Below are positions 393 to 64,000 of a stretch of DNA of 64,000 nucleotides, in pieces (positions within the stretch are counted from its first letter, which is position 1; each line of letters opens with the position of its first letter). Source of the DNA: Bilabrum cf. latius. Taxonomy: Eukaryota. The stretch covers positions 372,001 to 436,000 of the forward strand of contig OZ237756.1 in the NCBI GenBank assembly GCA_965178125.1, given 5' to 3'. The position numbers and the translations under genes are program-made. The notes beneath the pieces are model-generated. The model saw nothing but the letters and a program-made list of their open reading frames with translations, searched no databases and had not been told where the DNA came from.

Positions 393-1698
393 TCAGCCCC
401 TGCTGCTCCTCCTCCTCCCGCTCGATCGCCTCCGGCCACTGCCTGTGGAACCCTTGGAGGACGCCGCGGTGGAACTCGGCGAACGTTCGCTGCCCCCCTT
501 CGCCCCTTTGCTTCCCACCACCACCTCCTCCACCTCACTGTCCTCGTCCTCATCCTCACCGCCAGCAGCAGCATCAGCAGCATCAGCAGCGAACGGGTCC
601 TCCTCGTCCCCCTAAGCACCTGCCCCGTGCTCGCCCAAAGCAGCCACCGCTGCCTTCATGGCCCCCACATCCACGCCACCCCCTGCCGCAGAGTCCGCAT
701 CGAAAGCCGCCTGCATGCGGCCAAAGGCCCCACCGACAGACGACCGCCGTGCCGTCGCGGCCGCGATGCTCCTCCTTCTGCTCACCTCCTCCTCGCTCTC
801 AACGCGGGCAGCGAGCGCCACGCACAGGCCCTGCAGGCGATGTGCCTGCTCCACCACGCCCTCCACCTCCTGCGCGGCGCCCTTGGGATCGGTTCCGCAG
901 AAGTCCTCGGTCGCTTTCGAGATGGAATCGCTCGCAGACTCGAACTGGGGAAGCCGCTTCTGGTACAGCCGCCTGACGTGCTTAAGGGCACGGCGGCGGC
1001 GCTTCTCCTTGAGAATGGCCTGGTGCTCCTCCGCGATCTGCTGCCGAAGTTCCGCAAGCGCGGCGTCGGTCGCAGCCTCCTCCTCCTCCTTCTCCTCGTC
1101 ACCCTCCTTGCCTCTGGCCTGGTCAGCATCGTCTTGCTCGCCCAAGTCCAGGGTCGGGGGGATATCGAATATGTTTCGCATGACGTACATTTCAAATTTG
1201 TCCATATTCTGGTCGAAGTGCCGACGCAGGTCCTCCACCAGGCTGTCGCAGCCGTGCGCGATTTCGGCGCGCACCTCGCTATCGCTAGGTAGGCGGCGCG
1301 ACTTAGAAGATGTCGGTGCCTTTGGCAGGGCCTGCAAATTATGTTGAGACAGTAACTTCACCATGATAGTAGGCGGGCTGGTCCGCTAAAGCAAGCTTGG
1401 CAACACTACACGTGCAAATGTGTGACTGCAGCCCAATGCAACATTCTCTCACGCTGTCCAGGCCTTCTTCCATTTTATCAAGACCATCGCATATATAATC
1501 ATCAGCAGCATTATAGACTGCGCGGGTGGTAGAGTAGTATTGAGGGATAGCGGCAATACATAGGTCTTAGGCAAATTTCACAGGACCGGCAAGCAAGCAC
1601 GCAAAATAAAGGCCCTCACTGTCCTCGACGAATCGCATCGGATCGAAGCCAAAGTATTGAACGACCCTAGGGTCGGAACTGCTGCCTGCGGCAGCCAT
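393..1698 (-). CDS. MIS12: Kinetochore protein Mis12-like; 3 exons (1698-1620, 1517-1453, 1331-393)
   Basis: YFGFDPMRFVED-IYNAADDY...FDQNMDKFEMYVMRNIFDIP matches the Mis12 domain pattern. GT-AG introns 1619-1518 and 1452-1332 keep frame. TAG at 612-614 read through to TGA at 393-395. Confidence 0.8.
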
Positions 1699-1856
1699 GT
1701 TGAACGTGAATGGCAGTCTGCGTTTTTCGAACAAACGTCTCCGAATCGGCGCCGCGCTTTGCTTAACGGAACCAAACTTGATGCCGGTCCGGCATTGCCG
1801 GACAGGACCCGTGATCCAACGTGCAACGATGCGTTCATATATCATTCTAAACCGAA

Positions 1857-4445
1857 TCACAACCCAAGGAAATACGCGTGCCCCCCAGCGTTCTGAATCG
1901 GGGTGGCAACGGGCGAAGCCAGCGCCCACTCGTACCACGTCTTGGTGGCGCTGCTGCACCGCCACAGGTGCACCTCCACCAGCTCGCCCTTCTTGACAGG
2001 GACGGGCCGCCGAAACGGAAAGTAGATGGGAAACCAGCTGTACATCTGAGGACTGTGCGTCTCTGGCTTGATGCTGCAGAGCACATCCCGGAACAGCCGA
2101 GCCTCGAAGTACCCCGCAAACCCGTGCATGGACGCAGAGGCAGATGCACGGAACTGCAGCGCAGTGTACCGGTCGTTGGCCAGCTCCCCGGGACGCGTCC
2201 TGTTGGGATGCACAAACCGGAAGCACGGCTGGCTCCCCGCCAAAGGCGCAAAGTTGTGGAGCCTCGCAACGTACGCCGTGTCATACCCCTTCAGCTCGTC
2301 TTCGTTCTGGCCCTTGACCGCATTCCAGAGCTTGGAGCTGGTGATGGGCGCGGCAAAACTGGTGTACTCGTAGGGTATGGATATGCCCCCCGGCTTCAGG
2401 AACCTCTGCGCGCCGTCTAGGCACTCCGGGCTCAGCTCGTTGTCCCCGAAGCTGCCCAGGAGCTCGCTCACAAGGATGTCGGCTTGCTCGGGTGCCTTCC
2501 ACGTCCGCATGTCGTGGTTCACAATCGTCACACGGTCGCCCCACCCCTCCGTGAGTGCCCGCCCCCTCAGGGTCACAACCGCGTTCGGGTTCTTCTCCAC
2601 TGCATACACCTTCACGTCCCTGCCCGTCTCGTCTGCCGCCCGAAGTGCCCTGTGCACCAGAGGTCCCCTGCCCGCGCCAACCACCATGAGGACAGTCCGC
2701 TAATCCTCGGGCGTTTCTTTGAGCGCCCCAACCATGGCCTGTAGGTACAGCCTGTACTTGACCGGGTCCTGCTCGAAGGTCTCGTAGGTGCCGCTCTCAA
2801 GGTTATCCATGAGCGGCTGAAGGGGCGCCTGCAGGTAGTCGTAGTACGGGATCTCGTATTCGTCCTTGTCCGTTGGATCCGGCAGGTCGCTGCACAGCGC
2901 GTGGATGGAATTCACGTACGCGATATGCCCGTGCCTGTGCCGCGCAGGCCCCTCCAGAATGAACTGCGCGCCCTGGAGGTACACCCTCTTTGCGAATGCG
3001 GCGTGTTCCCTGGGCAGGACGGGCAGGCCCGTGCGGGATTCCATGGAAAACAACGAAGTATGGATGGCCATGGCCTTGACCGGCTCCCCGATCCAGCGGT
3101 CCAGTTGTTCCCTGGGAGGCAGTTCCTTGGTCAGCTCGAGGAAGGCGCTCACGTGGGGGTTCGAATCGCAGAGGGTCCGGAGGCCGTCCCACACCCGCCA
3201 GGGGTGCTCCACGTCCTCGGGAGATGGCACGCCCGCGGGTGTGACGAGTGCGTCGGTGCTCGCGCCTGCGGCGCCCCCTGTGGCCGCACCGCCATGCGAT
3301 GCACCCTCGGTCAGCTCGCTCAGCGACATGCTCTTGGAGCCCGCCGTGAGGTGCCTTGCCGGCGGAACCTGAGGCGGCGCCGCACAAAGACCGACACTCT
3401 CGGCCTCGGCCTTGGCAGCCGCAACTGGCGTGGAACTGGGAGCGCCATCAACTCCTCCCGAGGTGCCCGCACCGGATGCGGCTCCGGCTCCGGTGACCGC
3501 ATAGCTTACAGCACCCATCCCCTCCTCACCACTCAACGACCCCAATGCGGGGAATTCCCCCGAGGGGATCACCCCCCAGCTGGGGTGCCCCTGCGCGTCC
3601 TCGATCGCGTCCCCCAGCCCCGCAGTCCCCTCCCTCACCCTCAGCAGCAACGAGGATTCGGAGCCGCGGGCCAGGGAGCAAGCGGCAGCAGCGCCAGAGT
3701 TTGCAGCAGGAGCTGCATCCAACCCATCTGCTGCCCCCTTGCCGCCATCACCATCCATGGGCGCTGCGCCGCTCCCGCTTCCGCTGCGGCCCGCCGCTCC
3801 CGCCACAGCAGGGACAGCAGGGACGGCGGGAACGGCGGGCGGACTCACAGCATCCGGGGAGGGGGCACCAGCACCAGCTGCGGCGCCAGCGCTCGCAGTG
3901 GCAGATGCGGGAGTGGTACTGACGGAGGCAAGTGACGCCGCTGCTGCAGGAGAGGAGGCCTGAAGCAGCAGGGCGTCGGCGGCACCGGTGCGCCTGACGA
4001 GCGGTACGCGGATCCAGAAATGCAGGTACGATTGCCCTTGCACGACCTGGTTGATACACCTGGCCAGGTTGTGATACCTATCTCCTGGCAATGGGGCCAC
4101 AACGGCGGTGACGCCGAGATGAGAGGCCCACGCTGCTTCCTGCTTGAACGCCTTCACCCCGGCTTCCCTGACATCTGGCGATGATGCGTCCACGTCGATC
4201 CAATCGGACATTTTGCCGACTACGCTCGAGTTCCAAGTATCCCCCTTCATAATCATGTCAGATCGAGTAGCCGGCGTCTGCCGAGCATCTGACATTCCGG
4301 CGGCATCTCGCCTTGAGCGCGGATGGAACAAGGGAGCAAGCACATAGTCAAAGTCCTCCTCGCTGCCGACCGCTTGTCGCATGTCTCCCACCAAATCAGT
4401 GGTATGGGGAAGATCTTTACCAACCATGACCCTGGGCCACGACAT
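1857..4445 (-). CDS. PRMT5: Protein arginine N-methyltransferase 5
   Basis: Motifs [65 protein letters not shown] and SWFPIYFP. ORFs 2700..4484 and 1857..2687 are in frame across one TAG (2700-2702). Ends TGA. Start could be 4445 or 4484. Confidence 0.95.
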
Positions 4446-4735
4446 GGCAATGTATGGCTTGGTGAATTGGGGTGCTATTTGCATCCTGCCATTTCAGCAG
4501 AACCCTGTGGAACCTTCGCCGCCCAGGAACACACCAAGGCTTGGTGACCAAGCGTGCCATCATAATCACAAGATCTCTATCCAAACAATCAATTTCAGTC
4601 TTCCATGCAAAGTAGTCCAGAGCGACGCGCGCTTCCATACAGCCTCTCCGCCCGCACGCTGTGGCAACACAGGCCCCAGCACGCGACACACGGCGAAACT
4701 TGAAGTGCTCCCCGCCACCGCTATGCTCCTCCTCC

Positions 4736-6445
4736 TCACTCATCGGTGGCCTGCCTCACCCTCTTCAGAGGTCGATCCACCTTCACCGACTGCGTGAACG
4801 GGTCGTACTTGGCATTGAAGCCCTTCCTCAGATTCTCGCAATACCGCCTCATCCTGACCTTGACGTCGTCGAAATCTTCCGCCACAAAGTATACGGGCTG
4901 GTAGGTAGTGATGGGATAGTCCGTCCCGGCCACGTCGGCGGGCACCCACGGCCTGTACTCGGGCACATCGTCCGTGCCTCCCGCCGGTCGTGTGGGCGAG
5001 CACGCGTACTCGAGTTCTCCAAAGGAACTGAGCAGGCCGGCACCATAAGCTTTCTTCTCCCCGTTCTCGTTGCAGAGACCGAATTCGACGCTGAACCAGT
5101 AGCAAGTGGCCAGTTTCTTGATCTCGTCATCGCTAGCGCCCAGCGAGGCAAGCCCGATCTCCTGGGAGAACTCGGCGAAATCAGGGTCGGCGAACAGGGG
5201 CACGTGGCCTAGCAGCTCGTGGCAGATGTCCGGCTCGGGCGTGTACAAGGGCTTCGTGTGGTGCCGGATGTACTACGTGGAGAAGAACACCCTGAACGCG
5301 AGTGCGTTGAGGAAGTCCCTTGCCGATAGGAGTCCGCTGACAGGACGCAGGGAGAACCCGGTGCAGCCCTGAAGGAACTGGGAGATGTCCTCCAGCTGGG
5401 GGATGGACCTCTCCCCGTACCCGCAATTTCTCTCCAGCAGCGGCATGATTTCTTTGTACTGCTTCACCGCGTACTTGTCCGTCTGCGCCCTCAGCTTGTT
5501 CCAGACGGTAGCCCATGTCTCGACCTCTTCTTCCGTGTATTCCACCCGTGGAATGGGTGTACCATGCCTGTATGTGAGCGCATTATGCACAATGAGCTTG
5601 CGGCGTTCTCTGTACACAGCGTCGGAAAAGCCGGGGTGGTCCGCCTCCAGGTCTTCGCCCGCGTCCAGCGTCTTTGTGCTGAACTTGTCAATGTCCTGGA
5701 CGCGTGTGGGGAACCACGGTACCTCCAATGGGGGCTGTGCGTCCACAGTGAGAGCCTGGGCGTTGAGTTCCCTGATGAGATCGTCGAGTCCCTGCACCGA
5801 TTTCCCGTCGAAGGACACCTCGAAGTCGAAGTTCGGGTCCATCCCCTTGGAGGGCTTGCTCTCGATGTACGTGAGGTTCACGCCGCGGTCCTCGAATATG
5901 CCCAGCAAGCGACGGAGCTCGCCGGGCCTGTCGCGAATGGTCAACTATAACGAGGTGTGACCGGCATCCAGCTGCGAGCAAGAGAAACGTAAGGCTGTGA
6001 ATGCGACAAGATCGATAATCGCGTGAACTCGTCGTGCTTGGCGTGGACTAGAATCGACACGCGAGTCTTACGTCCAATGATTCTCGCTGCCCACCAGAAG
6101 ACACTGACTGCTTCACTTTCTTGTGCCCAGTCACGTGCCCTTCAGCTGTCTGCGAGCAATGATACTAGCGAATGCCACACAGTTGGCCATGATCAATTCT
6201 AGCTCGAGCATACTTGCATGCCACACAGCGTATCCATGCATTTGAGAGCATGGATCGTTGCATTCAATACCACAAATTGATAGAATAGACCAAAATCAGC
6301 ACTGACTAGGTAAAGATGCGAGCAGCTAGGTGCAACAGGAAACCAATCTCACCGAGAGCTAGCGGATACCCACGAAGCGAAAGTTACGAGCTGCACATGA
6401 TCCAATGACCTGTCGCAGGCCCCTTAACTGTCTTAACCCTCGCAT
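4736..6445 (-). CDS. PAH: Phenylalanine-4-hydroxylase (ACT domain plus biopterin-dependent catalytic domain); exons 6445-6353, 6149-6072, 5971-4736
   Basis: Motifs [36 protein letters not shown](TAG)[29 protein letters not shown] and [13 protein letters not shown]. In-frame TAGs at 6359-6361, 5945-5947 and 5273-5275. Ends TGA. The two 5' exons are inferred from frame-preserving GT-AG sites. Confidence 0.92.
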
Positions 6446-6618: not shown

Positions 6619-9446
6619 ATGTAGAACTATGCTCTTGCGCTTTTGACCACTGCAGCTGTGATGGGAGTTTCGGCCCTGGAACAGGGACTGCTGCCCCCAT
6701 CCAGCTGCACTCAGCTTGAGGCAAACACCGCAAACATTGAGTTCGACTTTTCGAACCGTTGCATCCGAGGATCTGTAAGTTGTGGCAATCCATTTCGCAC
6801 TGTGTTGCCGTTGATGATGTACTGTCTAGAGCCGTATGGTGTGGATACATTGAGTGATGGCAGAGCCGCGTGCGATCTCACTGGCAATCACACTGCGACA
6901 GTCGCATAACTTTATCGTTTCAAGACTTTTCGCGCGGCTTGAGTCGTAATCAGATTATACTTTTTGTTATACAAGTGATTTCGTGTACCGATTGTCCATG
7001 TGGGCTGCCTACATGAGCAAGCCGTTGACCTGTTAATTTGCTCGCCCGCGCAGATGGACGACAACGACGTCACGCTGAATTTCACAGTCACCCCTGCAAT
7101 GGTTGAGGGTAACAAGCGTGTGGATTTCTTCCTGTGGAACATCGACCAGGCCCGGTCCCCGACCTTTAAGGTGGACGGCGCCCAGTGGCTGCAGGCCGTG
7201 GATCTCACAGACGACCAGGGTGAGAGAAGGCAAGCGCCAATTTCAACATTAAATTTGCAATTTCGTTGGGCCAGATAATTTCGGCCGATTCAGTTTTCCG
7301 CATTTTCCTCCCCCACCCCCTGTCAACCCTCATGCAATGCAGGCATCAACGGCGCACGCGTTGGCCTGGTGGAGGAGGGCAGCACCGACACCACCACGTT
7401 CATCGCGACCTACCACGGCGATTTGTGCCCTGGCGACTACTCCATCCAGTTCCAGGGAGTGAACGGGAACTACGGTATCTCGATATTCAGCTTCGAACGT
7501 GAGAAAGAAATGAGCACTGCATGCCATGCATGGGATTGAAGTGTGGGCCACTGCCACACCATAGAGAAGATCTACTCACTGCCATTCGAACTCGTCACAC
7601 CGTACGCACTCGTCACACACCCAACGCAGAGACTGACCTGATCGCCGAGATCTCCAACGACGGCACGGACGGCAGGCCATCCAACGTGGCCGCATATTTC
7701 ATCAGCGGCGCAAACTTTCCGACGTTCAACTTCAAGGGGGATTTCACTGAGAAGCGGTATGCCACCAAGAAGCTCATGTTCAACACCACCGGGGACCTGC
7801 TGTACTCCGGCGTAAACTTCCAGGCCGGTGCTGCCTTCCCCAGCTTGGGGCCTTCATCTGACCAATGGAGGGCGGGTGACATGACGCTGGAGACCGTGTG
7901 GAACAACATTGGGAGGCCGTCGGTTTCGGCTCAGGGCTCCGGATTCTTTTTCGGCATTGGTACTGACACCGTGGACGACGTGTTCTTCAACTGGGCAGAG
8001 AAGGGCCCCGTGTCTTCCGTCAACGTGAGCGTGGTGGGACACGTCGACTACCCCACGGTGTCATGGTCCAGCCCCAGCGGGAGCGTTGTGATTCCGAGTG
8101 ACGAGTCCTTCGAGATCGTGAGGATCGGGCCCATGCCCACCAACTTCCACCGGTTCCAGCCCGACGGTCTCATGCAGTCCGTCCGCATGACGAGTGGGAC
8201 CGGCGAGAACCTGGGCATGGGAGGCGATGCCGAGTTCACCTGCCTGGTGGACAACGTGCCCACCCAGGCAACCACCCAGACGACCTGCACCTCCGACGAG
8301 ATTCCGGCCAACAGCCCCACTTCGTTCAGTTCCAACTTCATACTGACTCCCAGGGAGCGAGACACCCCCGCGTACGTGTACTACAGGATCGAGAGGACCA
8401 CGTGTTTGACCACCTCGTCCGCTTCGTCCGGCCTGACTGAGGACCCCGCCCTGAATGTAACCTTCACTTTGGATTACCAGTCCATCGAGGGCGAGTGCAT
8501 GGATTACACGGACTGCTACGTGGACGGGGACGACCACCCGTCCCTGCGAACCTCTTTCTCCTCCACGGGAAACACAAACAAGATGATCCAGTGCGTGGGC
8601 ATGCCCAAGCGGTCCAACCCCGACTTGTTCGAGTCCCGCTGCATGGAGTGCACCAGCGACTGCCACTGCCCCGGCGGGTCCTACTGCCACACGGACAACG
8701 GAGTGTGCAACGACGGAGTTCGGAACTACCTTTGCGATGGCGACTCCCACCGCATGGCGGGCGTGTGCAAGGTGAAGGACGCGGCCAAGGAGATCATCGG
8801 CAAGCCCTGCCGGACAGACCAGGGGGCGACGTACAGCATCGTGCAGAGCAAGTACCGCCACGTGAGCCTCCCCGGCAGCGCACTCATCATCTCGGAGGGG
8901 GCTGCAGATGACAGGTCCGACGGCATCACCGGCGGCGGTTTCTGCGGCGAGGCGCGCTACTACAACTCGTCCAACGTTGATTTCCCGTCGAGCAACGTGA
9001 AGCGTTCCGGCGCCGCCCGGGCGATCCTGTGGGAAGGCCAGTGCGTCAGCGGCATGTGCCAGGAGTGCAGCGATGGCGAGGTGCAGTGCGCGAGCTCGCA
9101 GACCGGCAACGGTGGCGACAAGATGTGCATCCGCGGCCGGCTCAGGGACACGATCATCGTGGACCAGACCATCCGTACGTTCACGAGCAACACGGTGGCA
9201 GGCACCGCGCTCTCCGGTGTGATGATGATCATCGTGGTGCAGATCATCTTCGTGGTCTACTTTGTCGTGGAGCGTGGCGATGCGCACCGCCAGGAGGAAG
9301 AGGCCAAGGAGGAGAAGAAGAAGGAGCAGGCCGAGCAGAAGGCCGAGAAGGCCCGCAAGGAGCTCGCCGCTCACGACGGCAAGGTGATCGCCAAGGAGGG
9401 CGGAAAGAAGAAGGGCGCAGGCGCCTCGGAGAGCAAGGAGAACTGA
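6619..9446 (+). CDS. Cys-rich type I membrane/surface protein of unknown function; exons 6619-6774, 7054-7219, 7343-7498, 7630-9446
   Basis: Starts ATG TAG, giving MQNYALALLTTAAVMGVSA (signal peptide). Three GT-AG introns preserve frame. Has Cys clusters (CMECTSDCHCPGGSYC, CVSGMCQEC), a hydrophobic TM segment near the C-terminus and a Lys/Glu-rich tail. Ends TGA. Confidence 0.8.
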
Positions 9447-12132: not shown

Positions 12133-12230
12133 GATTTGATTATTCTGGCTGTGCTCGAAAGCACAACTAGTCACGGAGCTGTGACGAGCAATACACGTCG
12201 GTGCGTGTATTGGCCATTCAAGTGCACAAT

Positions 12231-14179: not shown

Positions 14180-15465
14180 TCACCCCCACAGATCGTCCTC
14201 CACCCCGTCAGCATGAGTCACCGACAAGAACACGCGGTCGGTGGACGTTGTGACGTGCTTGGGCACCGTCGTACGGTAGCACCCCTCACCGTACGACGCA
14301 CTCTGCGGCCGCAGCCTCCCGTACCTCCGCTCCCCGATCCCGTTGTCCCGCACCCCCACGTCATTGGTGCGGATGTGCCTCCTGGACGACAGCCGATCGT
14401 CGCTGGCCATGTGCCTGTCATACGTGAACACGCGCCTGCCATTGCCACCGGACCTCCTGCCCCCCCCCTCGGAGACCGTGCCCCTGCCCCCGCCGGTTCC
14501 CCCAACCCCCCCTCCCCCCACAAGGGTCTCGTACTCCGCGGCGGCTTGGGACCGCCGGTCCGTGTGACGAGTGGCACCGGTGAGTCGGGCTGTTGCTGTC
14601 TGTGGCCGTATACTGCTGCCTCCGGGTCCGTCGCCGCGGCTGCTCCTGCTGCTCCTGCTGCCGCGGCGCCCGGCAGCTGCCATCCGTCTCGGGCTGCCCC
14701 GCATTGGGGACGGGGAGGGGTGTCCCCTTCCCGTGTGACGAGTGCGGTCGTACCTCGGGGGTGCGACCGAGCCGTCAGCCTTTGATTCCGAATCTCTTCG
14801 GATGCTTGCCCTGCTGCTGCTGCCGCGACGGCGGCCGGTCACGGACAGAGCTGCTGGGCCTTCCGGGTGCTCGCCTGCTCCCCGCGCACTTGCTCGGACA
14901 GGCCCGTGCTTGCTCGGTTTTTCCTGATTCGACTTCCGCATGGATTCTTCGGCTTGCTTCAGTCCTTTTTCTCTGGATCGTTCCTCCCGCGCGACTTGTT
15001 CCCTGTACTGCTGCATTCTACGGAAGCTCGAATACTCGCCGCGCATGTTGACCTGCTTGATCCCGAACCCGAGCCTGGGCTTCTCGGACCTGTCCCAGCC
15101 AACGATGTCTACGTACTTCTCTGGTTTATATGTTATTTTGGAGAAGCTAGTGCCTTTCTTGATGGATGGGACGATGACTGCTTCCTTCCGGTTCTTGGGA
15201 GCTCCTCGACCGAGCTTGCTGGGCAGCGGGGGATCCACGTACTTGTCTCGCACGTTACCTGCAGATCGCGAGGATAGGGGTAGAAGGAACTAATATTGAC
15301 ATGTTAGCGGCATTTCGTTTTTGTGGACCGAACAACGCTGCGATCGAAACATGTGCGTCATCGTATACTGGTACGTGCGTGCTTCGGGTACCTCCGAGCG
15401 AGCTCACCATATTTCTTCCCGAGTAAATCGCGTGCTCCTGACACTGAATGCTTTACTGTATACAT
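14180..15465 (-). CDS. Basic hypothetical protein, possibly cilia/flagella-associated; exons 15465-15408, 15258-14180
   Basis: GT-AG intron 15407-15259 joins MYTVKHSVSGARDLLGKKYG to NVRDKYVDPP. The segment LGFG...RGEYSSFRRMQQYREQVARE is reminiscent of axonemal proteins (not verified). Ends TGA. Confidence 0.55.
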
Positions 15466-15635
15466 GTCTCCGCTGTGAACTAGCAACGGACCGATACTTG
15501 CGCCGCAAATGAGGGACCCGCGTCAAACGGATAGACTGCCAGACCGCGCGCATCATGACGAGCGGAGCAACGGCAACTTTTGGTTGCAACCGGCAATTTG
15601 CACGACCTGTCTTTGTTTGTACCGGGTCACTACGT

Positions 15636-16832
15636 ATGAATCGAATTCAAGGTGCAACGCGACCGTTTGTTCGTTTAGTACTATGTCGTCACGGTCAGAG
15701 CGCTAACAATGTCTTGATGAGGGAGGGTGTTGAACAGTATGCAAAAGGACGTCTTGCAGATCCTCCTCTGACACCTTTAGGCCATGCGTAGGCGTATGCA
15801 GCTGGCTTAGAGACATCATAGTTAATAAACAAATTTGCTGAGACTTTGCATAAAGTGTGGGTGTCACCTATGAAGCGAACGGTGCAAACAGCTGCTGGAA
15901 TTGCTGCAGGATGCGGTGCATCGTCACCGCTGCCATTCGAGATCCGAGCTGATATCTTCGAGCGCGGGGGTATATTCGTTCGTGAGGGATCTGACTAGCT
16001 AGAGTCGATTCAAGGCTAGCACGAACATGAAGGCAGGATGCCTCGGCTGGAGCTGGACAGCGCGTCGATCAAGCAGCTGCTTCCGGGGGCGCGCATCCCA
16101 CGCGGGACTGTCACGAGCCAGGGTTGGAGCCCAACCGCGCCGAGCTACCAGCGAGAAACCGGCTAGCAAACGTTGAATATAGTAGCTGGTGTGGCCGAGT
16201 CGTTGTGGGAGGAAGCGGAGAAATGGAACGCAGAAGCGCCCGCGTCCACAGGAACCAGCAACAGCCCCGGACCGTAGTCGGATGACCTGGCGGATTCTGG
16301 CTCCGGGTTATTTCTGGATCCCCTGCCGGCCGTCGAGGCAGCTCCGATGAGTCCTGGCAGCATGCGGCAGCTGATGCTGGTGTGTCACGCCGACTTTATC
16401 GACTTGCTGGTGCGGTTCCTCACCGGCGGGGAGTCTGCCGCGAAAGCGCACGTGGATACGGCAGCGGACGGGGAAGAGGTGGTCCCCGATGCACCTGGTG
16501 TAACGAGTGATAGTGAGACCATTAATGGTGTGACGTTTGGGTGCGACAGGCCGCCGGTGCGACCGCCGGCGAGGAGCCATTTCCTGTCCTACAACTGCGC
16601 CTGGACGACCGTTGACTTGTTCCCTGGGCGGGCCGTGCGAGTGGTGCACGCAAATCGCACGCAGCATTTGGTTCGTCGCGCCGACGTGGTGCGACTGCTC
16701 CTGCAGCAAGGGCGTCTGCCGCTGCCAGTGTGCGAGGGGATGGAGGACGGGGCACGGCGGGACTTGCTTGACGCCAGCGAGCAGGATCCCGACGCGTGGC
16801 TGCTATCCGGTTGTGCGGAGGGCCTGGAATGA
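15636..16832 (+). CDS. Histidine phosphatase / phosphoglycerate mutase family protein
   Basis: Motifs LVLCRHGQSANN, DPPLTPLGHA(TAG)A, VWVSPMKRTVQTA and LVCHADFI. One 399-codon frame with six TAGs (15789, 15819, 15996, 16017, 16164, 16275) and no internal TAA/TGA. Ends TGA. Confidence 0.88.
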
Positions 16833-17022: not shown

Positions 17023-17791
17023 ATGGATGATTCGTGTGGGTCCGGGCGTGCTGGTGTTGCGACCCAAGCGCGCGTTCTTGCCTTCAACATGTGGAAAGCA
17101 CCAGGCGCGGAGTGCGAGCACCTCAAGTGTTTGATGCCACCTGCGGTCCATCAAGCATTGCATCAGTTTAACCACTAGCCTCTGGTTGTGATTCAGGTGC
17201 AAGGTCCTGGGCGGGGAGGGAAGAGCAGCCTGCTGAACCTGTTGGCCGGGTGGATAACAAGGTGCGCGGGCTTGTCAGCCCCCGAATCGGTTGCTTTGTG
17301 GGACGATCTGCGGAGGTCGATCCCGTATGAGCACATCCAATGTGATTGTGAAGGAGTATGGCATCCCGAACAGGTGTGGTCAAAAACAATGGAGGGCGCA
17401 AAGGTTCTGAATGTGTTTAATGTCTCGCACTCCTCAGATCCGTGCACCCAGGGTGCCGAAGGCTGCTTTATATATCTTCCAGCCGGTACTTTCGGCCGCA
17501 GTGACCCTTTTTCTGTCTTACTGATCGACTGTGAGGGTACGGGGGACAAGTCCAAGGAATACCACAGCAAGGTGATGCTTCCCGGGCTGGTATTCACGAG
17601 CGCCGGCGCTGCCATCGTGCGCACTTCCAACGCTGGGCTCGTGAACGACGCGCTGGACCAGCTGGGCCACCTTGCCGAAGCAGCAAGGGTGTACCAGGTG
17701 GGAATCAAGAGAATGAGCAAATCCACTGGTGGTGCAGCGGGTGCGGTTGCGGGAGCCACTGCCGCCGCTGGGTCCTCTCCCCCTGCACCAC

Positions 17792-17825
<34 letters not shown>

Positions 17826-47853: not shown

Positions 47854-50800
47854 ATGCGCACGGTTGCAGCCGCTTGCATCCTGGCTATATGCATGGGCTC
47901 TTCCATTGCCAAATCGGGTATTTTGAAGGAAGGCAGCTCGAGAGTGTACCGAAAGACCGGCGCAAACCAAGCGGTTATGCGAGCCAGAGGTGAGGCAGAA
48001 CTGCAGCACTATCGCAAGCCGCTGGCACCTATTTGAAGCTTTGTATGCCAGCTCATTTGGAATTCAAGCTGTCGCTCCTTATTCTCCGTGGTGTCTCCTC
48101 CGCAGACCCGAACGACCCATCGCCTGAATCGGCCGGAGGGTCCGCTGGCTCCACCGGTGGGGCCGATCCCGAGCCTGAGAGAGACGCTAGTCCGGGCCAC
48201 CAGTGCAAGCACATGATCTTTCATGTGAATGCGTTTGAATGGGACAGGGCAGGAGAGCTGATATCATCTGCTATGCTCGCAGATCCGAAGATGGTCGCCG
48301 AGGAGCTCGCCGCAGCCTCTCGCCAGCTTGCAGAGGACATCAAGGAGGCCCGGGTGAAGCCATCGCCGGAGGAACCTTCTACAGACACACTGCAGGACAT
48401 CAAGGAGGCCCGGGTCAAGCCATCGCCGGAGGAACCTTCTACAGATACACTGCAGGACATCAAGGAGGCCCGGGTGAAGCCATCGCCGGAGGAACAAACT
48501 ACAGACACGCTTCAGGCGGATAAAATTGACGCTGTCGATACGCCGAAGCAAGAAACGAGTCTCAAGGGGCCAAAGCAAGGCGCGTCGAGCGACGCTACCG
48601 GAGGGGATGCAGTCCAAGGTGCGCCGGCCGACTCTGCCCCCAAGATGCCTCTAGACTTGGACCCGGTCGCATCGGATGGATATGGGGCAAGTCTGGTCCG
48701 CTTCAGCGAGGCCGCCAGGCCAGAGGACTCCTCCTCCTCCTCCTCCACCTCCACCTCCTCCTCCTCCTCCTCGAGCCCAGCCAGCAGCCGGGTGCAGCGG
48801 TGCGTCGTCAAGGCGGCTGGCAAGCTGGCCCGGGGGGAGGAGAAAGAGGTCCGGGCTGCGATCGAGTCTGCATGCCAGGTGCAGGCAGGCATCGATGCGT
48901 TCATCGAGGGCCGCACATCCGGCGGCGGGACTCCACTGACGGTTGGGATTGGCATGGCCGTGGCAGCAGAGGCCTAGCGAGCGGCTGCCGTGTCCATGGG
49001 CCTGCATCTGGCGAGTCTCCCGGGTGCCGAGATGCCATTCCAATACCACCTGAGCATTGGCGGGTACAGGCCGAGCGAGAACACTGCCCATGGCCTCCCT
49101 CCCTCCTTCAGCCAGGCCCTTCTCACGGAGCTGGGGGGTCTTGCCTCCGAGCCGGGAGCATCGTCGCCGCACTCTTCGGAGGATCGTACGGTGGATCATC
49201 TCATGGCTTCGCTTACGGCGCTTGGCGAGAAATGCGCAAATGATGAAGTCCTGATTCCTCAGCCCGCTGTGATCGGCATGTCTGCATGCACGACCGATGA
49301 GTTGGCTCAAGCGCTGGTTGCAACCGGTGCCATCGGCGACTCCGGATACTACGAGGACCCGGCCGTACAGCTGGCTGGCGATCTACCCAACCTGAGGGGC
49401 AGTCAGTAGTTTGGGGGTGACACGCATCACCCATCGATGCCCTTCGTGACAGGAGCCCACGGGCAGCTCATCCCGCCGGCCAACTCCAGCCTGCTTCACC
49501 TGGAGGCATCGTCAGGGGCTGGCAGCCGGCAGGGCCCGCTACTGCACGGTGTTGGCGAGCCCCCAGCTGCAGCTGATCATACAGGGGGTAGCGGCGAGGA
49601 GGGTGATGGCGTTGGTGCAGGTGCTGCTTCTGCGAGCATGGGGGGCTCTGGGGGTGCTGCTTCTGGGGCGGGGGCCTCAGACGATGTCGTTGACATGGCT
49701 GGCCTTCCCGTGGAGGGGACCGATCGGCACCAAGTCGTGTTTGTTTTAGATTCTGGTGTGCACCGTCGCTACTCTGGGTTTCAGTCCGAAGGTGCATTCG
49801 ACTGGGTAGAGAAGGCTTTGTTTCAGGCCACGGGCGGGCATCCGGACGACCCGCCAACGAGCAGAGTATCGATGGGTTTGTCCATGCGGAATCCCGATGG
49901 CGGAAAGAGAATTGACGCATCCTTGCCTCCTAATGAAAATGACTGGCATGGTACCACGGTTGCAAATGAGGCATGCGGCGGGCCGGGGATGCGGTCGATC
50001 ATCGTGCCAGTGCGAGTCATTGGTGCGGCATGGGATAAACCGGGCATAAACCATGGTGGTTTGCCGAGTAACGAAGCGCGCCAACTCGTCGCTGACCTCA
50101 GTGAATCAGGAAGCCCCAACCCTGGCAGTGAGTTGGTCTACGCCGAGGATGGTTCGGCTACTCATCAGCAGCGCGCATCATTCGCTGGCTGGGGACTGGC
50201 TGCGATAGTGCACATGGCTCAGGATGTGCGGCTGACGATCCGACGATCCATGGGCGCCTCTTTCCGTGATGGGGCCGTCCTAGGGGTGGTGAATATGGCC
50301 ATTACGAACTGGGACGGAAGAAAGCAGGCGGTCGGAACCAAGAGGCCTCCCATCAGCGAGGCCAAGATGACCAGGATTGCAGAGGAGCTCGATCACTTCT
50401 CCGATGTGCTGCACAAATTGGGCTTCCTGCTTGTGGCTGCAGCTGGCAATGAGCACATGAATGCCGCCGACTCCTACCCTTGCAATGCCAAGGGTGTGAT
50501 TTGCGTGGGATCCCACGCTGGTTCAGTACCGGATGCTTTTGAACAATCTGCTGCATCCCATGCTGGCCGAGCAGCAGAGCCTGTTGTGCGCATGTCCGGG
50601 TTTTCTCACTACGGCCGTGCTGTCGATATATTCGCCTAGGGTGAGGGGATCAATAAAGTCGATTTTGAGACACTCGCCTAGGGACGTGAAACCACGCGGG
50701 GCACGTCATTCGCGGCGCCTCGTGTGACCAGATCGCTGATCACCATGGCCGGCACGCTGCGGATCGTCGACGCGACCAAGGCTCTCCGTCTGTTGCAAGC

Positions 50801-51986
50801 CAACAACGAGAATGTGAAGCTGGCGATAGCAGCATCCGCCCCTTGGGGTGTTCGTGAGGGATGGCTAGGGCCACAGCTCGAGGATACTATCTACGGTCGG
50901 GAGCACTAGAGATTGGTGATGAGGGACATGGCCTCGACCGACCTTGAATCGTGGAAAGTACCGCGTGCGGATCTGCTCCCAGCCCTATGCGACCCCAGTG
51001 AAGATGCGTGTGACCCGGTGCTGCTTACATACCGGTGTGGCTGCTTCGATAGAATTGAGTCAGACGGTAGCGAGTGCATATCTACGAGTCGATATCCCGG
51101 TGTGCATGTCGCGATACATCAGGCTGCCGGCGGTGGCCCTTACCAGCTGAAAGATGAGCTACGCGAAACTATTTGTAAAGATGCGAGTTGTAGCACAAAG
51201 ACTAGGCTGGTTGGTCGCGCAGAGCCAGGTGGCGAGCGTGTATTTGGTTCGCTTCTTCGTATCGATGCAGATATATCTGGCATCAGGCGTGATCGTGATC
51301 ATGAAGCCGGGGTCGCCGCAGCTGCTAGAGCCAGTAGCGACGAGGCGGAGGCAAGGGCAGGCAGCAAGGGTGAGAAGACGAGTACTGGCGACGATGGTGC
51401 TGGGGCTAGTGCTGGTGTCAAATCTGTTGGGGCTAGTGCGGGTGACGTGGCCGGTGGTGCTGCTGGCTCTGTCGACAGAGACAGCGTGCCGGCAGAAGAT
51501 ACCTCCCGGAATGAGGCATTCCCAAGTCGAGTCAAATGCGATGCACCCGCAGATCCAGGGCTCTCATTTGCATTATTCACGCTTTCTGGCATGTGTTTCG
51601 CCTCTGATCCGGCCGATGCTGAAGCAGAGATCGAGGAAACCGACGTGCTGATCGATGTCCTGGATGGCTGTCCGTGGACGCTGTATTCGAATACCATGGG
51701 CCGATTTGCGGTGCTTGCTAGACATGTGCCACGCTGCGGTACCGAGGCTGTGGTAAAGCCGATCCAAATCATGGTGTTTTTGGGCCCGCGTGGCGCTGGT
51801 GGGCAGCCCCGGGCACAATCGTGCCAACCCATGGCTGGTAAGACCGAGTCAGAGGAGCCGCTCCAATGGCACGTCGGGGTCACGGTGAAAGAGCCCTCCC
51901 TATACGTGCATGTACATGCTAAGGGTGAGGGTCTCGAGGGTGTACCACTCAGAGTAGATGTATCGGTTCGGTTTCGAGATGAGTGA
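47854..51986 (+). CDS. Secreted subtilisin-like (S8) serine protease, copy 2; exons 47854-47989, 48106-51986
   Basis: Motifs FVLDSGV, WHGTTVA, VAAAGN and GTSFAAPRV. TAGs at 48975, 49407, 50637, 50679 and 50907. Ends TGA. Same intron as copy 1. Confidence 0.85.
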
Positions 51987-60851: not shown

Positions 60852-63800
60852 ATACAGAAATACAGAAATACAGAAATACATTGTTGGGTAAAGATTCCAC
60901 AAGCACCCAGATGCACCGTTGCCCCCGAAGGAGTTCGAGTGATCACCTGAATCCAGAGGAGTCCTCAAACAAGGACTACAAGACCCCCGACCCTTTCAGG
61001 CCAAAGGCCCCCCAATCTCAGCCTACACCGCCGAGTCCCCTTTATTCGCCATCAATGTGGTCCCCCACAAGCCCTCAGCCTGATGCCTTCACAGGGAGAA
61101 AGCATACAGGTGCGGAGCATGTGCCCGGCACAAAGCGCGGTCCAGTCCCACATCAGGGTCCCCTGCCGGGACCCACCATTTCCTCCTCCATGACCGTCTC
61201 TGCGTCTCACGGTCCTTCAGAGAGGCTAGCATGCACGCGCTCATGCCTTTGGCCCATTGCCTCTCTATGTCCCTTAGCAAGCCGTGGGGCTTAAACATCC
61301 GTCGCTGTAGCCGAGCGTTCGCATTGGTTGCCGCTATCAGCTCTTGCGTGGCCGTGGCGGCAAGAGCAGCCGCCGCATCGCCTCGCATCCACTGCCTGCA
61401 CGTCAGCTACTCCTGCTAGCGCAGCTGGTTCCTGATCACCTGCACCACTCGGTTGGCCAGCTCCTTGACAGCTGTCCGTTCCGATGACCGCGCAATCGTA
61501 CGCTCTATCCGAGTGAGTGCGTCTTCGACGATTGGCTTGGCCCTGCTGGTGCGCTCCAGCTTCTCGTCCCAAGGGTCCTGAGCGAGAGCTGTCTTCGCCC
61601 ATGCTTTCCGGAGAGAGGCAGGGGACCTCCCTCTATTCTGATCCGCATCATCGGGTTGCCACGGTCTCGTTCCGGCGTGATGGTCATGCTCGGCCCGCTC
61701 CATCTGCTCTACCGCGGTGCCCATCACTTGAAGGTTGGGCGTGCCCTGTTGCGGGTATTGTCCAGCTCGGATGCGCAGAATTCGTCTTCCTTGGTGGCCG
61801 TATTCCTGCACCACCGCTGCTGTTGGCATGGCTCCTGGTCCGAAGGCATACCGTCCCTTCGTTGCGTACCGGTTAAGCATGACCACTCCCAGCGCAGCTC
61901 TCTCCCGGTCCCAATCCGACAGTGCCGGATCGTGCGAGCATCCCAGGCTCAGGCTTGTGAACGATCGGTCAGCAGCTCCGGATTTGGATTTCCTCCACTT
62001 TGTGACTTTTTTTGCAGTCTCCTGGCATCCCAGCCAGTCCTTCGCGTCATCGATCCGGTGGGTCCACCCTGCCATCTTGATCCTGAATCCCAGTGCCAGC
62101 GCGGCCCCGAGTGGGCCTGTCTGTACTGGTGGTCCCTGCAGGAATCGGCCCTGGTGGATGAACCTGGCCGCAACATCAAGGCCCTTCTTCGAGGGACACT
62201 CGATCAGGTCCAGCAGGCCCATAGCAACACGCCCTGCTGCCGATGCCGTCAGCAGCTCAGTGTCCATCGCAAGGTTTGGCACGTATCGACCGCCCATGGT
62301 GAAGGGCCTTACCTGTGTCGATCCGCTGACAATCATCCAGCGCGTATCCAGCAGGAATTTGTCCAGCATCTTGAGGACTTCCAGGTTCAGTTCCATCCCG
62401 TAGAAAACTTGGGAACCATATCCTAATCCTGACAAGGTGTCCCATCCTGTTGCACATGCCGCTGCCTCTGCTCCGTAGAATGCACTCGTGATTGCTCCTG
62501 CATGGAGCAGCTGGGCGTGCAGGGAGACCGCCCAGTTGCCGTTCACTGCCGCTCGTGTGATGTCCCTGGCCGCCCGGTACGCCATCGCAATCCTCCTGCG
62601 TACGTGGGGTGCCATATCAATTACCCAGATGTCTCTCGCCTGCGTCAGCCCAGCTACTTCATCTGGGCTGATCCGTACCGGTTGGGTCGAAATGAGTAGA
62701 CCGAGGTACAGGTAGGATGAGGCAAGTGGGATGGTCCACTCCCCATCCGTCTCTCCCGCGTCCGCTGCTCTGCATGCGACGCCCTCTGGCATGTCCCCAG
62801 GAATTGAGTCCCGAGCGTAGCCAAAGGCCATGATCGCTGTCTTGGTTCCCTGGCCCGATGCTGTCAGGGGCTTGATTCCCAGCTACATGCCCGCAAGTGC
62901 AAACAGGCTCTTGACTAGCTTCATGACCGCCACTGCTTCGTTCCAGTTCGACGTCAGTGCCACGTAGTCGTCTGCGTACCCGACTTGTCCACATTCAACG
63001 TATCGTCCGGTGTCGGTCACGATCCTTTGATGGTGCCCGTGCTGGAGCCTCTCTTTCCGCAGCGTTTCCAGGAGAACCCCCATCAGTACCAGGAAGATGG
63101 TGGGAGACAGAATCTCGCCCTAGGGGGTGCCCGCCGTCTTCTGCACTCTGGTAGAGACCCTCCTGGTGAGTGGGTCTCGAACGCGGATGGCCACCTGCAT
63201 GCGGGCCATGAGAAAGCGGACCGTCTGGCGTCCCCATCCTTGTTCCGTCATGATGGCCTCGATGATGTTCCACTTGCAACTGTCAAATGCTCCTTTGATG
63301 TCAAAGAATACCAGAAAACCTCCAGCACCCCTTCGTTGGGTAATCCATTCCATCACCGCTGAGTAGGCCTGCTGGCAGTTCTTGCCGATGCGAAATCCGG
63401 CCTAATCCTGGCCGAAGAGTCCGTGGTTTTCGCAGTACCACATGACCTTCTGGTTTGCGATGGTGCTTACGACCTTCGAGAGAGCCGAGGTCCAGCATAT
63501 TGGCCTGAATTCGTCGACTCCTGTGACTCCTGTGCCCTGCTTGCGCTTGGAGACCGGCCGCATGAACCCCTCCTGAAAGGCCTCAGGCTGAATCCCCGAG
63601 AAGAGTGTGAGATTATAAATGGCCCTGAGGAGGTCCAACAGAGCGTCACTTCGCCGCAGACACCCGTCCTCCTCAGAGCATGGCTAGCATTTGGTCAGCA
63701 ATTCCGCCCTGATCCCATCAGGTCCCACAGCTTTGTTGTGCTTGAGCTTGTCCAGTGCTTGATCCACCTCTGCGTTCGACCTGCAGAATAGGTTGAGCGG

Positions 63801-64000
63801 TGTCGCTGCCCTGGGCATGTGCGGCGCAATCCTGGCCATAAATCCGCCCACATCCGCACTTCCATTCCCACCTGCGTGAGAGAGCTGCTGTGCGTGTGCC
63901 TCTAGGATATCCTCGACGGCCGTAAGCACCTCTCCGCCTAGGTTCGTGATTGGTTCCAGTCCTGGTGCAGCTCGTTGCCTTCTAGAGATTGCATCAGCGA
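60852..64000 (-). mobile_element. Non-LTR retrotransposon (LINE); 5' end lies beyond the window
   Basis: RT ORF plus a short 3' UTR and a (TGTATTTC)3+ tail at 60852-60880. It interrupts the duplicated unit at ggggggat^cgtgtc (empty sites near 28737 and 46805). Confidence 0.92.
61089..63998 (-). CDS. LINE reverse transcriptase ORF (5'-partial)
   Basis: Motifs KAVGPDGI, FRPIC, (TAG)AGFR, FFDIKGAFDS, GTP(TAG)GEILSPTIF and YADD. One frame with TAGs at 63684, 63402, 63120, 62883, 61416 and 61407. Ends TGA 61089-61091. Confidence 0.9.

What the first reader, a model, noticed from the sequence alone, without database searches (positions are those of the whole stretch)
393..63998. Variant nuclear genetic code: UAG = glutamine
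Seen in sequence: about 60 in-frame TAGs (manual count) in about 20 otherwise intact genes. Established knowledge: they occupy conserved Gln sites, namely PAH ST(TAG)YIRH at 5273 (family TQYIRH), BCAT DI(TAG)YG at 24499, JMJD5-type HHDP(TAG)HN at 20964, histidine phosphatase LTPLGHA(TAG)A at 15789, and RT G.P(TAG)G at 63120 and (TAG)AGFR at 63402. Genes expected to be important (PRMT5, BCAT) would otherwise be broken. Inference: UAG is a regular Gln sense codon.
Basis: partly seen in the sequence, partly recalled or inferred. Interest (0 to 1): 0.95.

Follow-up and report, generated by a model that had tools for sequence, protein, structure and literature searches.

The report
UAG read as glutamine in a protist
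This stretch of a GC-rich protist genome uses the normal stop codon UAG as an ordinary glutamine codon and ends its genes with UGA or UAA, a rare but already known kind of genetic-code change.

Summary
All six quoted sites are TAG in the stated frame. Twenty-one long reading frames hold 61 in-frame TAG, no in-frame TGA or TAA, and end in TGA (19) or TAA (2).

- **Inside conserved domains:** 13 TAGs lie within Pfam domain matches.
- **Meaning:** at 10 TAG columns with at least 20 homologs, glutamine scores +16.5 bits and the runner-up, lysine, -6. The same tally recovers 52 of 53 ordinary codons.
- **Kept in mRNA:** spliced contigs from two other studies carry the TAGs unchanged. These include PAH (5273, 5945) and codon 2 of a highly expressed surface-protein gene (6622).

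Caveats:
- One counted TAG (15290) lies in an intron, and four lie upstream of the first ATG.
- A TAG conserved in two subtilase-like paralogs aligns to proline in solved subtilases.
- TAA looks like a stop, but on thin evidence.
- No tRNA or eRF1 gene is in the window, and no whole genome was available.
- The lineage is unresolved; two gene trees disagree.

UAG-only-to-Gln is already known in Iotanema, Protocruzia and some phyllopharyngean ciliates. This is probably a new member of that kind.

The parts
4736..6445 (-). Aromatic amino acid (phenylalanine) hydroxylase gene with an ACT domain. It has 3 exons (6353-6445 and upstream, 6072-6149, 4736-5971). In-frame TAGs at 6359-6361, 5945-5947 and 5273-5275; stop TGA at 4736-4738.
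   Evidence: Pfam Biopterin_H E 3e-148 and ACT. TAG 5273 aligns to Q in 3 of 3 shown PDB alignments. Joints 5971>6072 and 6149>6353 (GT..AG on the minus strand) appear in X5, X6 and X7 but not X1, and contigs cover 5000-5971 with 0 other letters. Spliced model.
24445..25602 (-). Branched-chain amino acid aminotransferase. TAGs at codons 6, 17 (both upstream of the first ATG), 92, 109, 137 and 368 (24499-24501); stop TGA.
   Evidence: Pfam Aminotran_4. Codon 368 has Q in 117 of 120 homologs; the other columns are variable. A 95% identical fragment, P0018, has Q there.
20505..22760 (-). JmjC/Cupin_8 (JMJD5-like) gene. 5 TAGs, including 20964-20966 in HHDP-TAG-HN; stop TAA.
   Evidence: Pfam Cupin_8 E 4e-31. 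The TAG aligns to Q of HQDPQQN in 4 of 4 shown JMJD5 chains. X5 contig 17837-22764 has 0 other letters.
15555..16832 (+). Histidine phosphatase (branch 1) gene with 6 TAGs (15789, 15819, 15996, 16017, 16164, 16275); stop TGA.
   Evidence: Pfam His_Phos_1 E 7e-12. X5 contig 15640-16647 has 0 other letters. Site 15789 shows Q in 3 of 5 and Y in 2 of 5 weak PDB alignments.
1857..4484 (-). PRMT5 gene, all three Pfam domains complete. One TAG at 2700-2702 (codon 595); stop TGA.
   Evidence: Pfam PRMT5_TIM, PRMT5 and PRMT5_C. The column is variable: K 32, Q 21, E 20, N 17 of 119-120.
22856..24307 (-). DMT_YdcZ-type transporter gene with 4 TAGs (23936, 23615, 23066, 22970); stop TGA.
   Evidence: Pfam DMT_YdcZ E 7e-43. 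TAG 23615 aligns to Q in the 77% identical relative P0241.
61089..63998 (-). Non-LTR-type reverse transcriptase ORF that runs off the window end. 6 TAGs, including 63402-63404 and 63120-63122; stop TGA.
   Evidence: Pfam RVT_1. Q in 133 of 141 and 138 of 143 homologs. Q in R2, LINE-1 and group II RT structures.
6619..9446 (+). Highly covered Cys-rich membrane protein gene. Exons end or start at 6774, 7054-7218, 7342-7498 and 7630. Codon 2 is TAG (6622-6624); stop TGA at 9444-9446; poly(A) at 9653.
   Evidence: GT..AG joints in X5, X6 and X7 but none in X1; poly(A) loose end at 9653 in X5; X6 and X7 contigs cover 6578/6579-6774 with 0 other letters. Spliced model 'M-TAG-NYALALLTTAAVMGVSA'.
29964..33731 (+). 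Subtilase-like large protein (paralog 1) with 4 TAGs. TAG 32634-32636 sits at the position of P in the subtilase APG motif.
   Evidence: PDB subtilases at E 2e-7; P in 5 of 5 shown alignments. The TAG is conserved in the paralog.
48033..51986 (+). Subtilase-like large protein (paralog 2) with 5 TAGs. 3 are shared with paralog 1, and 2 columns pair TAG with CAG.
   Evidence: Codon alignment; dN/dS 0.59.
25970..27427 (-). Member 1 of a 5-copy gene family of unknown function. The other copies are 40508-41935, 42878-44335, 52325-53902 and 57653-59101, all on the minus strand. Each copy has 1-3 TAGs.
   Evidence: One column pairs TAG with CAG, and TAG is shared by 3 copies in two columns. dN/dS 0.21-0.53.
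393..1436 (-). Mis12 kinetochore protein gene with 2 TAGs (1386, upstream of the first ATG; 612); stop TGA.
   Evidence: Pfam Mis12 E 3e-18.
17023..20004 (+). GBP-like large GTPase gene with 4 TAGs; stop TAA.
   Evidence: Weak Pfam GBP match, below cut-off.
15257..15405 (-). Intron of the gene at 14180-15361. It contains the TAG at 15290-15292, which was counted as in-frame.
   Evidence: Joint 15256>15406 in X5, CT..AC with cut +2.

Best explanation
The window is nuclear DNA of a GC-rich (about 60%), intron-poor eukaryote in which UAG has been reassigned from stop to glutamine. UGA is the usual terminator, and UAA is probably a second, rarer one. Shown here: UAG is frequent inside the coding frames of conserved, expressed genes. 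It makes up about 11% of apparent Gln codons (61 against CAG 367 and CAA 122). It survives in spliced mRNA, and wherever homologs are strongly conserved it stands at Gln, with one exception. Inferred, not shown: UAG is read by a cognate tRNA-Gln with anticodon CUA, one base change from tRNA-Gln(CUG). Such a tRNA reads UAG but not UAA, which would explain why only UAG changed. An eRF1 with weakened recognition of UAG is a likely accompaniment.
For: 61 in-frame TAG against 0 TGA and 0 TAA in 21 frames that end in TGA (19) or TAA (2). 13 TAGs lie inside Pfam domain matches of 8 genes. Codetta-like tally over 10 TAG columns with at least 20 homologs: Q +16.5 bits, next K -6. The same procedure gives the standard meaning for 52 of 53 sense codons with at least 5 columns, and the score per column for TAG (1.65) is like that for CAG (1.36). 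Q frequencies at single sites: 117 of 120 (BCAT 368), 133 of 141 and 138 of 143 (RT). Q in all shown PDB alignments for PAH and JMJD5. Close relatives have Q where the window has TAG: P0018 at 95% identity, P0002 at 76% (2 of 4 sites), P0241 at 77%. Between paralogs, 3 columns pair TAG with CAG and 5 columns keep TAG in more than one copy. dN/dS is 0.21-0.59 and there are no frameshifts. RNA evidence: contigs of X5, X6 and X7 (studies P2 and P3) carry GT..AG joints that are absent from the DNA-like run X1. X5 also carries a poly(A) end. They cover the TAGs at 5273 and 5945 (all three runs) and 6622 (X6, X7) with no other letters. 19 of the 27 counted TAGs in the laid range lie under a listed piece of these runs with 0 other letters. 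C-termini at TGA match those of homologs in BCAT and PRMT5, where the Pfam PRMT5_C match reaches codon 872 of 875.
Against: The TAG conserved in both subtilase-like paralogs (32634, 50637) aligns to the proline of the APG motif in 5 of 5 shown solved subtilases. Several TAG columns are variable and Q is not the commonest residue there: BCAT 109 is N in 82 of 119, and BCAT 92 is A/D/K. Between paralogs, TAG also faces TGG, TGT/TCG, GTG/TTG, GAT and ATA. In the 76% relative, TAG 109 faces W. No tRNA gene was found in the window and no genome was available, so neither tRNA-Gln(CUA) nor eRF1 could be examined. There is no protein-level evidence. The tool itself labels X5 'RNA? (probably DNA)'. Only contigs that carry splice joints are therefore firm RNA evidence. 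The searches that supplied the homolog columns were run with Q at the TAG positions, which gives a small bias.
Confidence: 0.9

Rival explanations
1. Both UAA and UAG are glutamine (NCBI table 6 type), and TAA is simply rare because the genome is GC-rich.
For: TAA is the rarest stop triplet in the window: 265 and 229 on the two strands, against 435 and 461 for TAG. Only 2 of 21 frames end in TAA. UAR = Gln is the commonest variant in print (PMC11687900, passages read).
Against: There is no in-frame TAA in 13,405 codons. If TAA:TAG followed CAA:CAG (122:367), about 20 would be expected (my arithmetic). Reading TAA through extends the frames upstream by at most 116 codons, and with low GC3 in most cases. 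No conserved domain is cut by a TAA. The JmjC frame ends in TAA 17 codons after the end of the JMJD5 alignment. The frames were delimited by TAA, so this test has limited power.
Confidence: 0.06
2. UAG is ambiguous: Gln inside genes, but still a terminator in some contexts, as in Condylostoma, karyorelicts or Amoebophrya sp. ex K. veneficum.
For: Two frames have a TAG where termination would be plausible. One is TAG directly before the TGA of the frame at 9829-12255. The others are TAGs 414 and 446 in the low-complexity tail after the DMT domain.
Against: In BCAT, PRMT5, PAH and JmjC the end that matches homologs is a TGA or TAA, not a TAG. TAGs occur from codon 2 to close before the end of genes.
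Confidence: 0.1
3. The TAGs are not translated. They would be pseudogene mutations, assembly errors, unrecognised introns, or sites edited in the RNA.
For: One counted TAG (15290) does lie in an intron, and 4 lie before the first ATG. The multi-copy families and the retroelement could include dead copies.
Against: Only TAG interrupts the frames, never TGA or TAA. Essential single-copy genes are affected. TAGs lie inside ungapped domain alignments. RNA-like contigs from two further studies show the same letters and no joints at these sites, while they do show joints at real introns. Paralogs have dN/dS below 1.
Confidence: 0.02
4. UAG is a sense codon for another residue, such as Lys, Glu, Leu or Ser, as in other UAG reassignments.
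For: K is the commonest residue in 3 variable columns (PRMT5 595, BCAT 17 and 137). P stands at the subtilase site.
Against: Summed log-odds are Q +16.5, K -6, E -18, L -27, S -20, P -29. The near-invariant columns are all Q.
Confidence: 0.02

Closest known systems
Nuclear code of Iotanema spirale (Fornicata): UAG = Gln, UAA and UGA = stop (PMC5304391, passages read)
   Same: Only UAG is reassigned, and to glutamine. UAA and UGA are kept as terminators.
   Different: Iotanema uses UAA as its predominant stop (paper passage), whereas here TGA ends 19 of 21 frames. The organism is different: a 60% GC genome whose PRMT5 and BCAT resemble those of stramenopiles or alveolates.
Protocruzia tuzeti and two phyllopharyngean ciliate lineages: UAG = Gln, UAA = stop (PMC11687900, passages read)
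   Same: The meanings of UAG and UAA are uncoupled, with UAG = Gln.
   Different: Those ciliates end 86.9-98.3% of genes in UAA (paper passage); here UGA dominates. Nothing here points to a ciliate.
NCBI table 6 (ciliate, dasycladacean, Hexamita; also reported for oxymonads and Amoeboaphelidium): UAA and UAG = Gln
   Same: UAG = Gln, and UGA is the terminator.
   Different: In this window TAA is never in-frame, and it ends two genes.
Amoebophrya sp. ex Karlodinium veneficum: all three stops read contextually (PMC12005148, abstract and passages; PMC6394959, abstract in the search listing)
   Same: A marine protist with in-frame UAG, probably read as Gln. Introns are GT/AG.
   Different: That genome is 65.2% AT and has in-frame UAA (58% of in-frame stops) and UGA. 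This window is about 40% AT and has none of either.
NCBI table 15 pattern (TAG = Gln), as used for recoded phages (PMC9523058, abstract only)
   Same: The same formal table.
   Different: Those are phages of bacteria. This is a eukaryotic nuclear genome with introns and poly(A).

Membership tests
Nuclear code variant UAG = Gln with UAA and UGA = stop (table 15 pattern) | In-frame UAG in conserved, otherwise intact genes | tested here: met
   61 TAGs in 21 frames; 13 lie inside Pfam matches of 8 genes.
Nuclear code variant UAG = Gln with UAA and UGA = stop (table 15 pattern) | UAG columns are occupied by Gln in homologs | tested here: met
   Q +16.5 bits over 10 columns, next K -6; control 52 of 53 codons. 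PDB alignments agree. One conserved exception aligns to P.
Nuclear code variant UAG = Gln with UAA and UGA = stop (table 15 pattern) | UAG is present in mature mRNA (not spliced out, not edited) | tested here: met
   Spliced contigs of X5, X6 and X7 cover TAGs 5273 and 5945; X6 and X7 cover 6622. All have 0 other letters. Only part of the window (5000-24999) was laid.
Nuclear code variant UAG = Gln with UAA and UGA = stop (table 15 pattern) | UGA remains a terminator | tested here: met
   19 of 21 frames end in TGA, and there is no in-frame TGA. The C-termini of BCAT and PRMT5 match those of homologs.
Nuclear code variant UAG = Gln with UAA and UGA = stop (table 15 pattern) | UAA remains a terminator | tested here: inconclusive
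   No in-frame TAA; 2 frames end in TAA; read-through gives no coding-like extension. The sample is small and the frames were delimited by TAA.
Nuclear code variant UAG = Gln with UAA and UGA = stop (table 15 pattern) | UAG is no longer used as a terminator | tested here: inconclusive
Two ambiguous cases remain: TAG-TGA at 9832, and the DMT tail.
Nuclear code variant UAG = Gln with UAA and UGA = stop (table 15 pattern) | A cognate tRNA-Gln(CUA) gene exists | not testable with these tools
   No tRNA in the window (ARAGORN; Rfam). No whole genome is held.
Nuclear code variant UAG = Gln with UAA and UGA = stop (table 15 pattern) | eRF1 is altered in its stop-codon recognition motifs | not testable with these tools
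   There is no eRF1 gene in the window and no genome.
NCBI table 6 (UAA and UAG = Gln) | In-frame UAA at Gln positions | tested here: not met
   0 in-frame TAA in 13,405 codons and none in any Pfam match. Power is limited.
Ambiguous all-stop codes (Amoebophrya Kv, Condylostoma, Blastocrithidia) | In-frame UGA (Trp) alongside in-frame UAR | tested here: not met
   0 in-frame TGA, against 256 and 282 in the other two frames.

The most novel reading that the evidence does not exclude
This is an independent, so far unreported origin of the UAG-only-to-Gln code in a GC-rich, non-ciliate SAR protist. The lineage could be a bicosoecid-like stramenopile, where my searches found no nuclear code variant in print. 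It could instead be a relative of dinoflagellates or syndinians, and so perhaps a stage on the road to the all-stop code of Amoebophrya Kv. UGA rather than UAA is the main terminator, unlike every described UAG = Gln case that I read about.
Probability: 0.45. Interest if true: 0.75.

Novelty: new member of a known kind. Interest (0 to 1): 0.65.

Why it matters
- **Rarity:** Nuclear code changes are rare, and cases where UAG and UAA differ in meaning are rarer still. The passages I read name Iotanema, Protocruzia, some phyllopharyngean ciliates, a rhizarian and Scotinosphaera.
- **Codon capture:** A further case in a GC-rich genome that terminates mainly with UGA would test the idea that a codon is captured once it has become rare as a terminator. 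It would also test whether a tRNA(CUA) alone can uncouple UAG from UAA.
- **Annotation:** Standard gene callers break about three quarters of the genes in this window. The database already holds truncated fragments of this organism's relatives (P0018, P0002, P0241). Annotation, BUSCO scores and any proteomics of this organism will be wrong unless table 15 is used.

Tried and rejected
- **Whole genome:** none is held, so no tRNAscan-like search, eRF1 search or 18S placement was possible.
- **ARAGORN and Rfam on the window:** 0 tRNA genes and 0 RNA families.
- **Sequencing runs:** the run search listed no holder on record as RNA; RNA status rests on the splice joints and the poly(A) end seen.
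- **Six-frame ORF counts under alternative codes, with shuffles:** uninformative, because GC-rich DNA gives many spurious long frames.
- **Metagenome scan for close relatives of BCAT:** it returned only two distant loci, at 45% and 42% identity, which were not used.
- **Homolog search with the DMT transporter:** only 3 hits.
- **PDB search with the histidine-phosphatase N-terminus:** 0 hits at E 0.01, and only weak hits at E up to 10.
- **Protein Atlas:** A TAG-free stretch of the surface-protein gene gave no usable hit.
- **Cluster look-up of the nearest relatives:** no organism names.
- **Amoebophrya sp. Kv as the source:** rejected on base composition and on the absence of in-frame TAA and TGA.
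- **Lineage placement:** two FastTree gene trees disagree. PRMT5 groups the query with Cafeteria plus two unnamed proteins (support 0.95; 41 of the 120 hits were used). BCAT groups it with unnamed environmental proteins plus one labelled Symbiodinium sp. KB8 (support 0.78; hits shorter than 330 aa were dropped, apart from P0002 and P0018). I draw no conclusion from them.
- **Literature searches for a nuclear code variant in stramenopiles or bicosoecids:** none found. Supplements were closed, and subscription journals are not in the library.


Full report
**What is in the window**

The 64 kb window is about 60% GC. It carries eukaryotic nuclear genes, identified by Pfam:
- Mis12
- PRMT5, with all three domains
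- an ACT-domain aromatic amino acid hydroxylase (PAH)
- a branch-1 histidine phosphatase
- a GBP-like GTPase (weak match, below cut-off)
- a JMJD5-like JmjC/Cupin_8 protein
- a YdcZ-type DMT transporter
- a branched-chain aminotransferase (BCAT)
- a non-LTR-type reverse transcriptase (RT)

It also holds a five-copy family of unknown function, two large subtilase-like paralogs, and several satellite arrays.

**The observation**

I read 21 long frames with TAG as sense. They hold 61 in-frame TAG in 13,405 codons and end in TGA (19) or TAA (2). Beside the TAGs stand 367 CAG and 122 CAA, so TAG would be about 11% of Gln codons.

| Frame | TAA | TAG | TGA |
|---|---|---|---|
| Coding frame | 0 | 61 | 0 |
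| Second frame | 38 | 81 | 256 |
| Third frame | 54 | 78 | 282 |

(All.) The frames were defined as free of TAA and TGA, so the zeros are partly built in. A plain count of long frames under alternative codes was not informative in this GC-rich DNA.

The independent fact is that 13 TAGs, and no TGA or TAA, lie inside Pfam domain matches of eight genes. The domain alignments run through them without gaps.

**What the codon means**

I collected homologs for BCAT (120), PRMT5 (120) and the RT domain (150). For each TAG I tallied the residue that homologs carry there.

| TAG column | Residues in homologs |
|---|---|
| BCAT 368 | Q 117 of 120 |
| RT 199 | Q 133 of 141 |
| RT 293 | Q 138 of 143 |
| PRMT5 595 | K 32, Q 21, E 20, N 17 |
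| BCAT 137 | K 53, R 23, Q 19 |
| BCAT 109 | N 82, Q 4 |
| BCAT 92 | A 35, D 31, K 18 |

- Three columns are nearly invariant and all three are Q. The rest are variable.
- Over the 10 columns with at least 20 homologs, log-odds sum to +16.5 bits for Q. The runner-up is K at -6.
- As a control, the same procedure on all sense codons of the same three genes gives the standard meaning for 52 of 53 codons with at least 5 columns. The one miss is GTA.
- TAG scores 1.65 bits per column. True Gln codons score 1.36 (CAG) and 0.77 (CAA).

Solved structures add three points:
- PAH 5273 aligns to Q in 3 of 3 shown alignments.
- The JmjC site aligns to Q in 4 of 4 shown JMJD5 chains.
- The RT 'G-T-P-TAG-G' site aligns to Q in 5 of 5 shown RT structures.

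The histidine-phosphatase site is only weakly supported: Q in 3 and Y in 2 of 5 weak alignments. The three homolog searches were run with Q at the TAG sites, which is a small bias.

**Close relatives and paralogs**

- A 95% identical fragment in the database (P0018) has Q where BCAT has TAG 368.
- A 76% relative (P0002) has Q at two of the four aligned TAGs, and D and W at the other two.
- A 77% relative of the transporter (P0241) has Q at TAG 231.
- These database proteins are truncated fragments. That is what standard-code gene calling would produce on such genes.
- Inside the window, paralogs pair TAG with CAG in 3 columns and share TAG in 5 columns. TAG also faces TGG, TGT/TCG, GTG/TTG, GAT and ATA.
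- Most of these codons are one step from TAG or sit in variable places.
- The paralogs have no frameshifts, and their dN/dS is 0.21-0.59. They are constrained, if loosely.

**A real counter-example**

In both subtilase-like paralogs a conserved TAG (32634, 50637) sits in '...DIFA-TAG-GEG...'. In 5 of 5 shown solved subtilases this position is the proline of the APG motif. These proteins are too divergent for Pfam to recognise. An A-Q-G variant is therefore possible, but I could not test it.

**RNA evidence**

One 10 kb stretch was used to find sequencing runs. Four runs were then laid on 5000-24999.

- X1 behaves as DNA: long colinear contigs and no joints at introns. It may be the source of the assembly.
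- X5, X6 and X7 come from two other studies. They carry GT..AG joints at 6775-7053, about 7219-7341 and 7499-7629 on the + strand, and at 5972-6071 and 6150-6352 on the minus strand.
- X5 also has a poly(A) end at 9653. None of these joints is in X1.
- These runs therefore hold spliced mRNA, although the tool labels X5 'probably DNA'.
- The spliced PAH contigs cover 5000-5971 in all three runs with 0 other letters, so UAG 5273 and 5945 are in mature mRNA.
- With the RNA-defined exons, PAH becomes a 468-codon CDS with three TAGs.
- The most highly covered gene becomes a 764-codon CDS whose second codon is TAG (6622). This codon is covered by X6 and X7.
- Only by reading that TAG does the protein get its signal-peptide-like start. 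That the start is a signal peptide is my inference.
- No 'other letters' were reported anywhere in the laid stretch.
- 19 of the 27 counted TAGs in it lie under a listed piece of X5, X6 or X7. Pieces without joints could be DNA.
- The same data correct the count. TAG 15290 lies in an intron (joint 15256>15406, X5), and four TAGs lie before the first ATG.

**TAA, TGA, and UAG as a terminator**

- TGA is a terminator. It ends 19 frames, and in BCAT and PRMT5 the end matches that of homologs.
- TAA ends two convergent genes. It is never in-frame, and reading it through gives no coding-like extension.
- If TAA were Gln at the CAA:CAG ratio, about 20 would be expected. The power of this test is limited, so I rate 'TAA = stop' as likely, not shown.
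- Whether UAG still terminates some genes cannot be decided from this window.

**Mechanism**

The window holds no tRNA gene and no eRF1 gene, and no genome was available. A tRNA-Gln(CUA) and an altered eRF1 are therefore inferences from other systems. A passage in PMC11687900 explains that a CUA anticodon reads UAG only, whereas UUA reads both UAA and UAG.

**Which organism**

This is unresolved.
- Named best hits reach only 54-58% identity. They include oomycetes, Nannochloropsis, Cafeteria and a protein labelled Symbiodinium sp. KB8.
- The PRMT5 tree puts the query with Cafeteria (support 0.95).
- The BCAT tree puts it with unnamed environmental proteins and the Symbiodinium-labelled one (support 0.78).
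- It is not Amoebophrya sp. ex K. veneficum. That genome is 65% AT and has in-frame UAA and UGA.
- It does not fit Iotanema or the ciliates either, which terminate mostly with UAA.

**Comparison and novelty**

UAG = Gln with UAA kept as a stop is in print for Iotanema spirale, Protocruzia tuzeti and two phyllopharyngean lineages (PMC5304391 and PMC11687900, passages read). Four searches found no nuclear variant reported for stramenopiles or bicosoecids. Supplements were closed and subscription journals are not covered.

I file this as a new member of a known kind. It has two unusual traits: a GC-rich genome and UGA as the main terminator.

**Verdict**

Noticed in passing
window 28412-28554, 45313-46498, 59835-60546: The same 59-bp satellite (2.4, 20 and 12 copies) lies just downstream of three of the five unknown-family paralogs (25970-27427, 42878-44335, 57653-59101). 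This suggests a repeated 'gene + satellite' segmental unit. The long ORFs listed through these arrays are repeat artefacts.
   Followed up: partly
window 36078-37004 and 37040-37769: Two adjacent tandem arrays: a 113-bp unit with 8 copies and a 39-bp unit with 19 copies. The 329-aa 'ORF' at 36850-37839 is made of these repeats.
   Followed up: no
window 29964-33731 and 48033-51986: Two large paralogs (about 1,250-1,320 aa) contain a divergent subtilase-like core. The D, H, N and S motif contexts are visible (VFVLDTG, DWHGT, AAAGN, GTSFSAP), yet Pfam does not detect it. Solved subtilases match at E 2e-7.
   Followed up: partly
window 6579-9653: This is the most highly covered transcript in the laid stretch (word depth about 400 in X5). 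It encodes a Cys-rich protein with a C-terminal hydrophobic stretch and no Pfam family. It has three short GT..AG introns in its 5' part and a 207-nt 3' UTR before the poly(A) site at 9653.
   Followed up: partly
window 53998-54789 (+) versus 61089-61880 (-): A 263-aa frame repeats almost exactly the C-terminal part of the reverse-transcriptase ORF, including its two TAGs. This is a second, truncated copy of the retroelement.
   Followed up: no
window 20002-20507: The GBP-like and JmjC genes converge with about 500 bp between their ends. They are the only two frames that end in TAA. One X5 contig (17837-22764) bridges both.
   Followed up: no
proteins P0018, P0002, P0241: The closest database relatives (95%, 76% and 77% identity) are N-terminally truncated fragments from unnamed assemblies. 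That is the pattern expected if relatives with the same code were gene-called with the standard table. P0001 (69% identity) is full-length.
   Followed up: partly
window 1857-4484, 20505-22760, 17023-20004: Conserved proteins carry long Ala/Gly/Ser/Pro-rich low-complexity inserts. An example is the roughly 270 residues between the TIM-barrel and catalytic domains of PRMT5.
   Followed up: no
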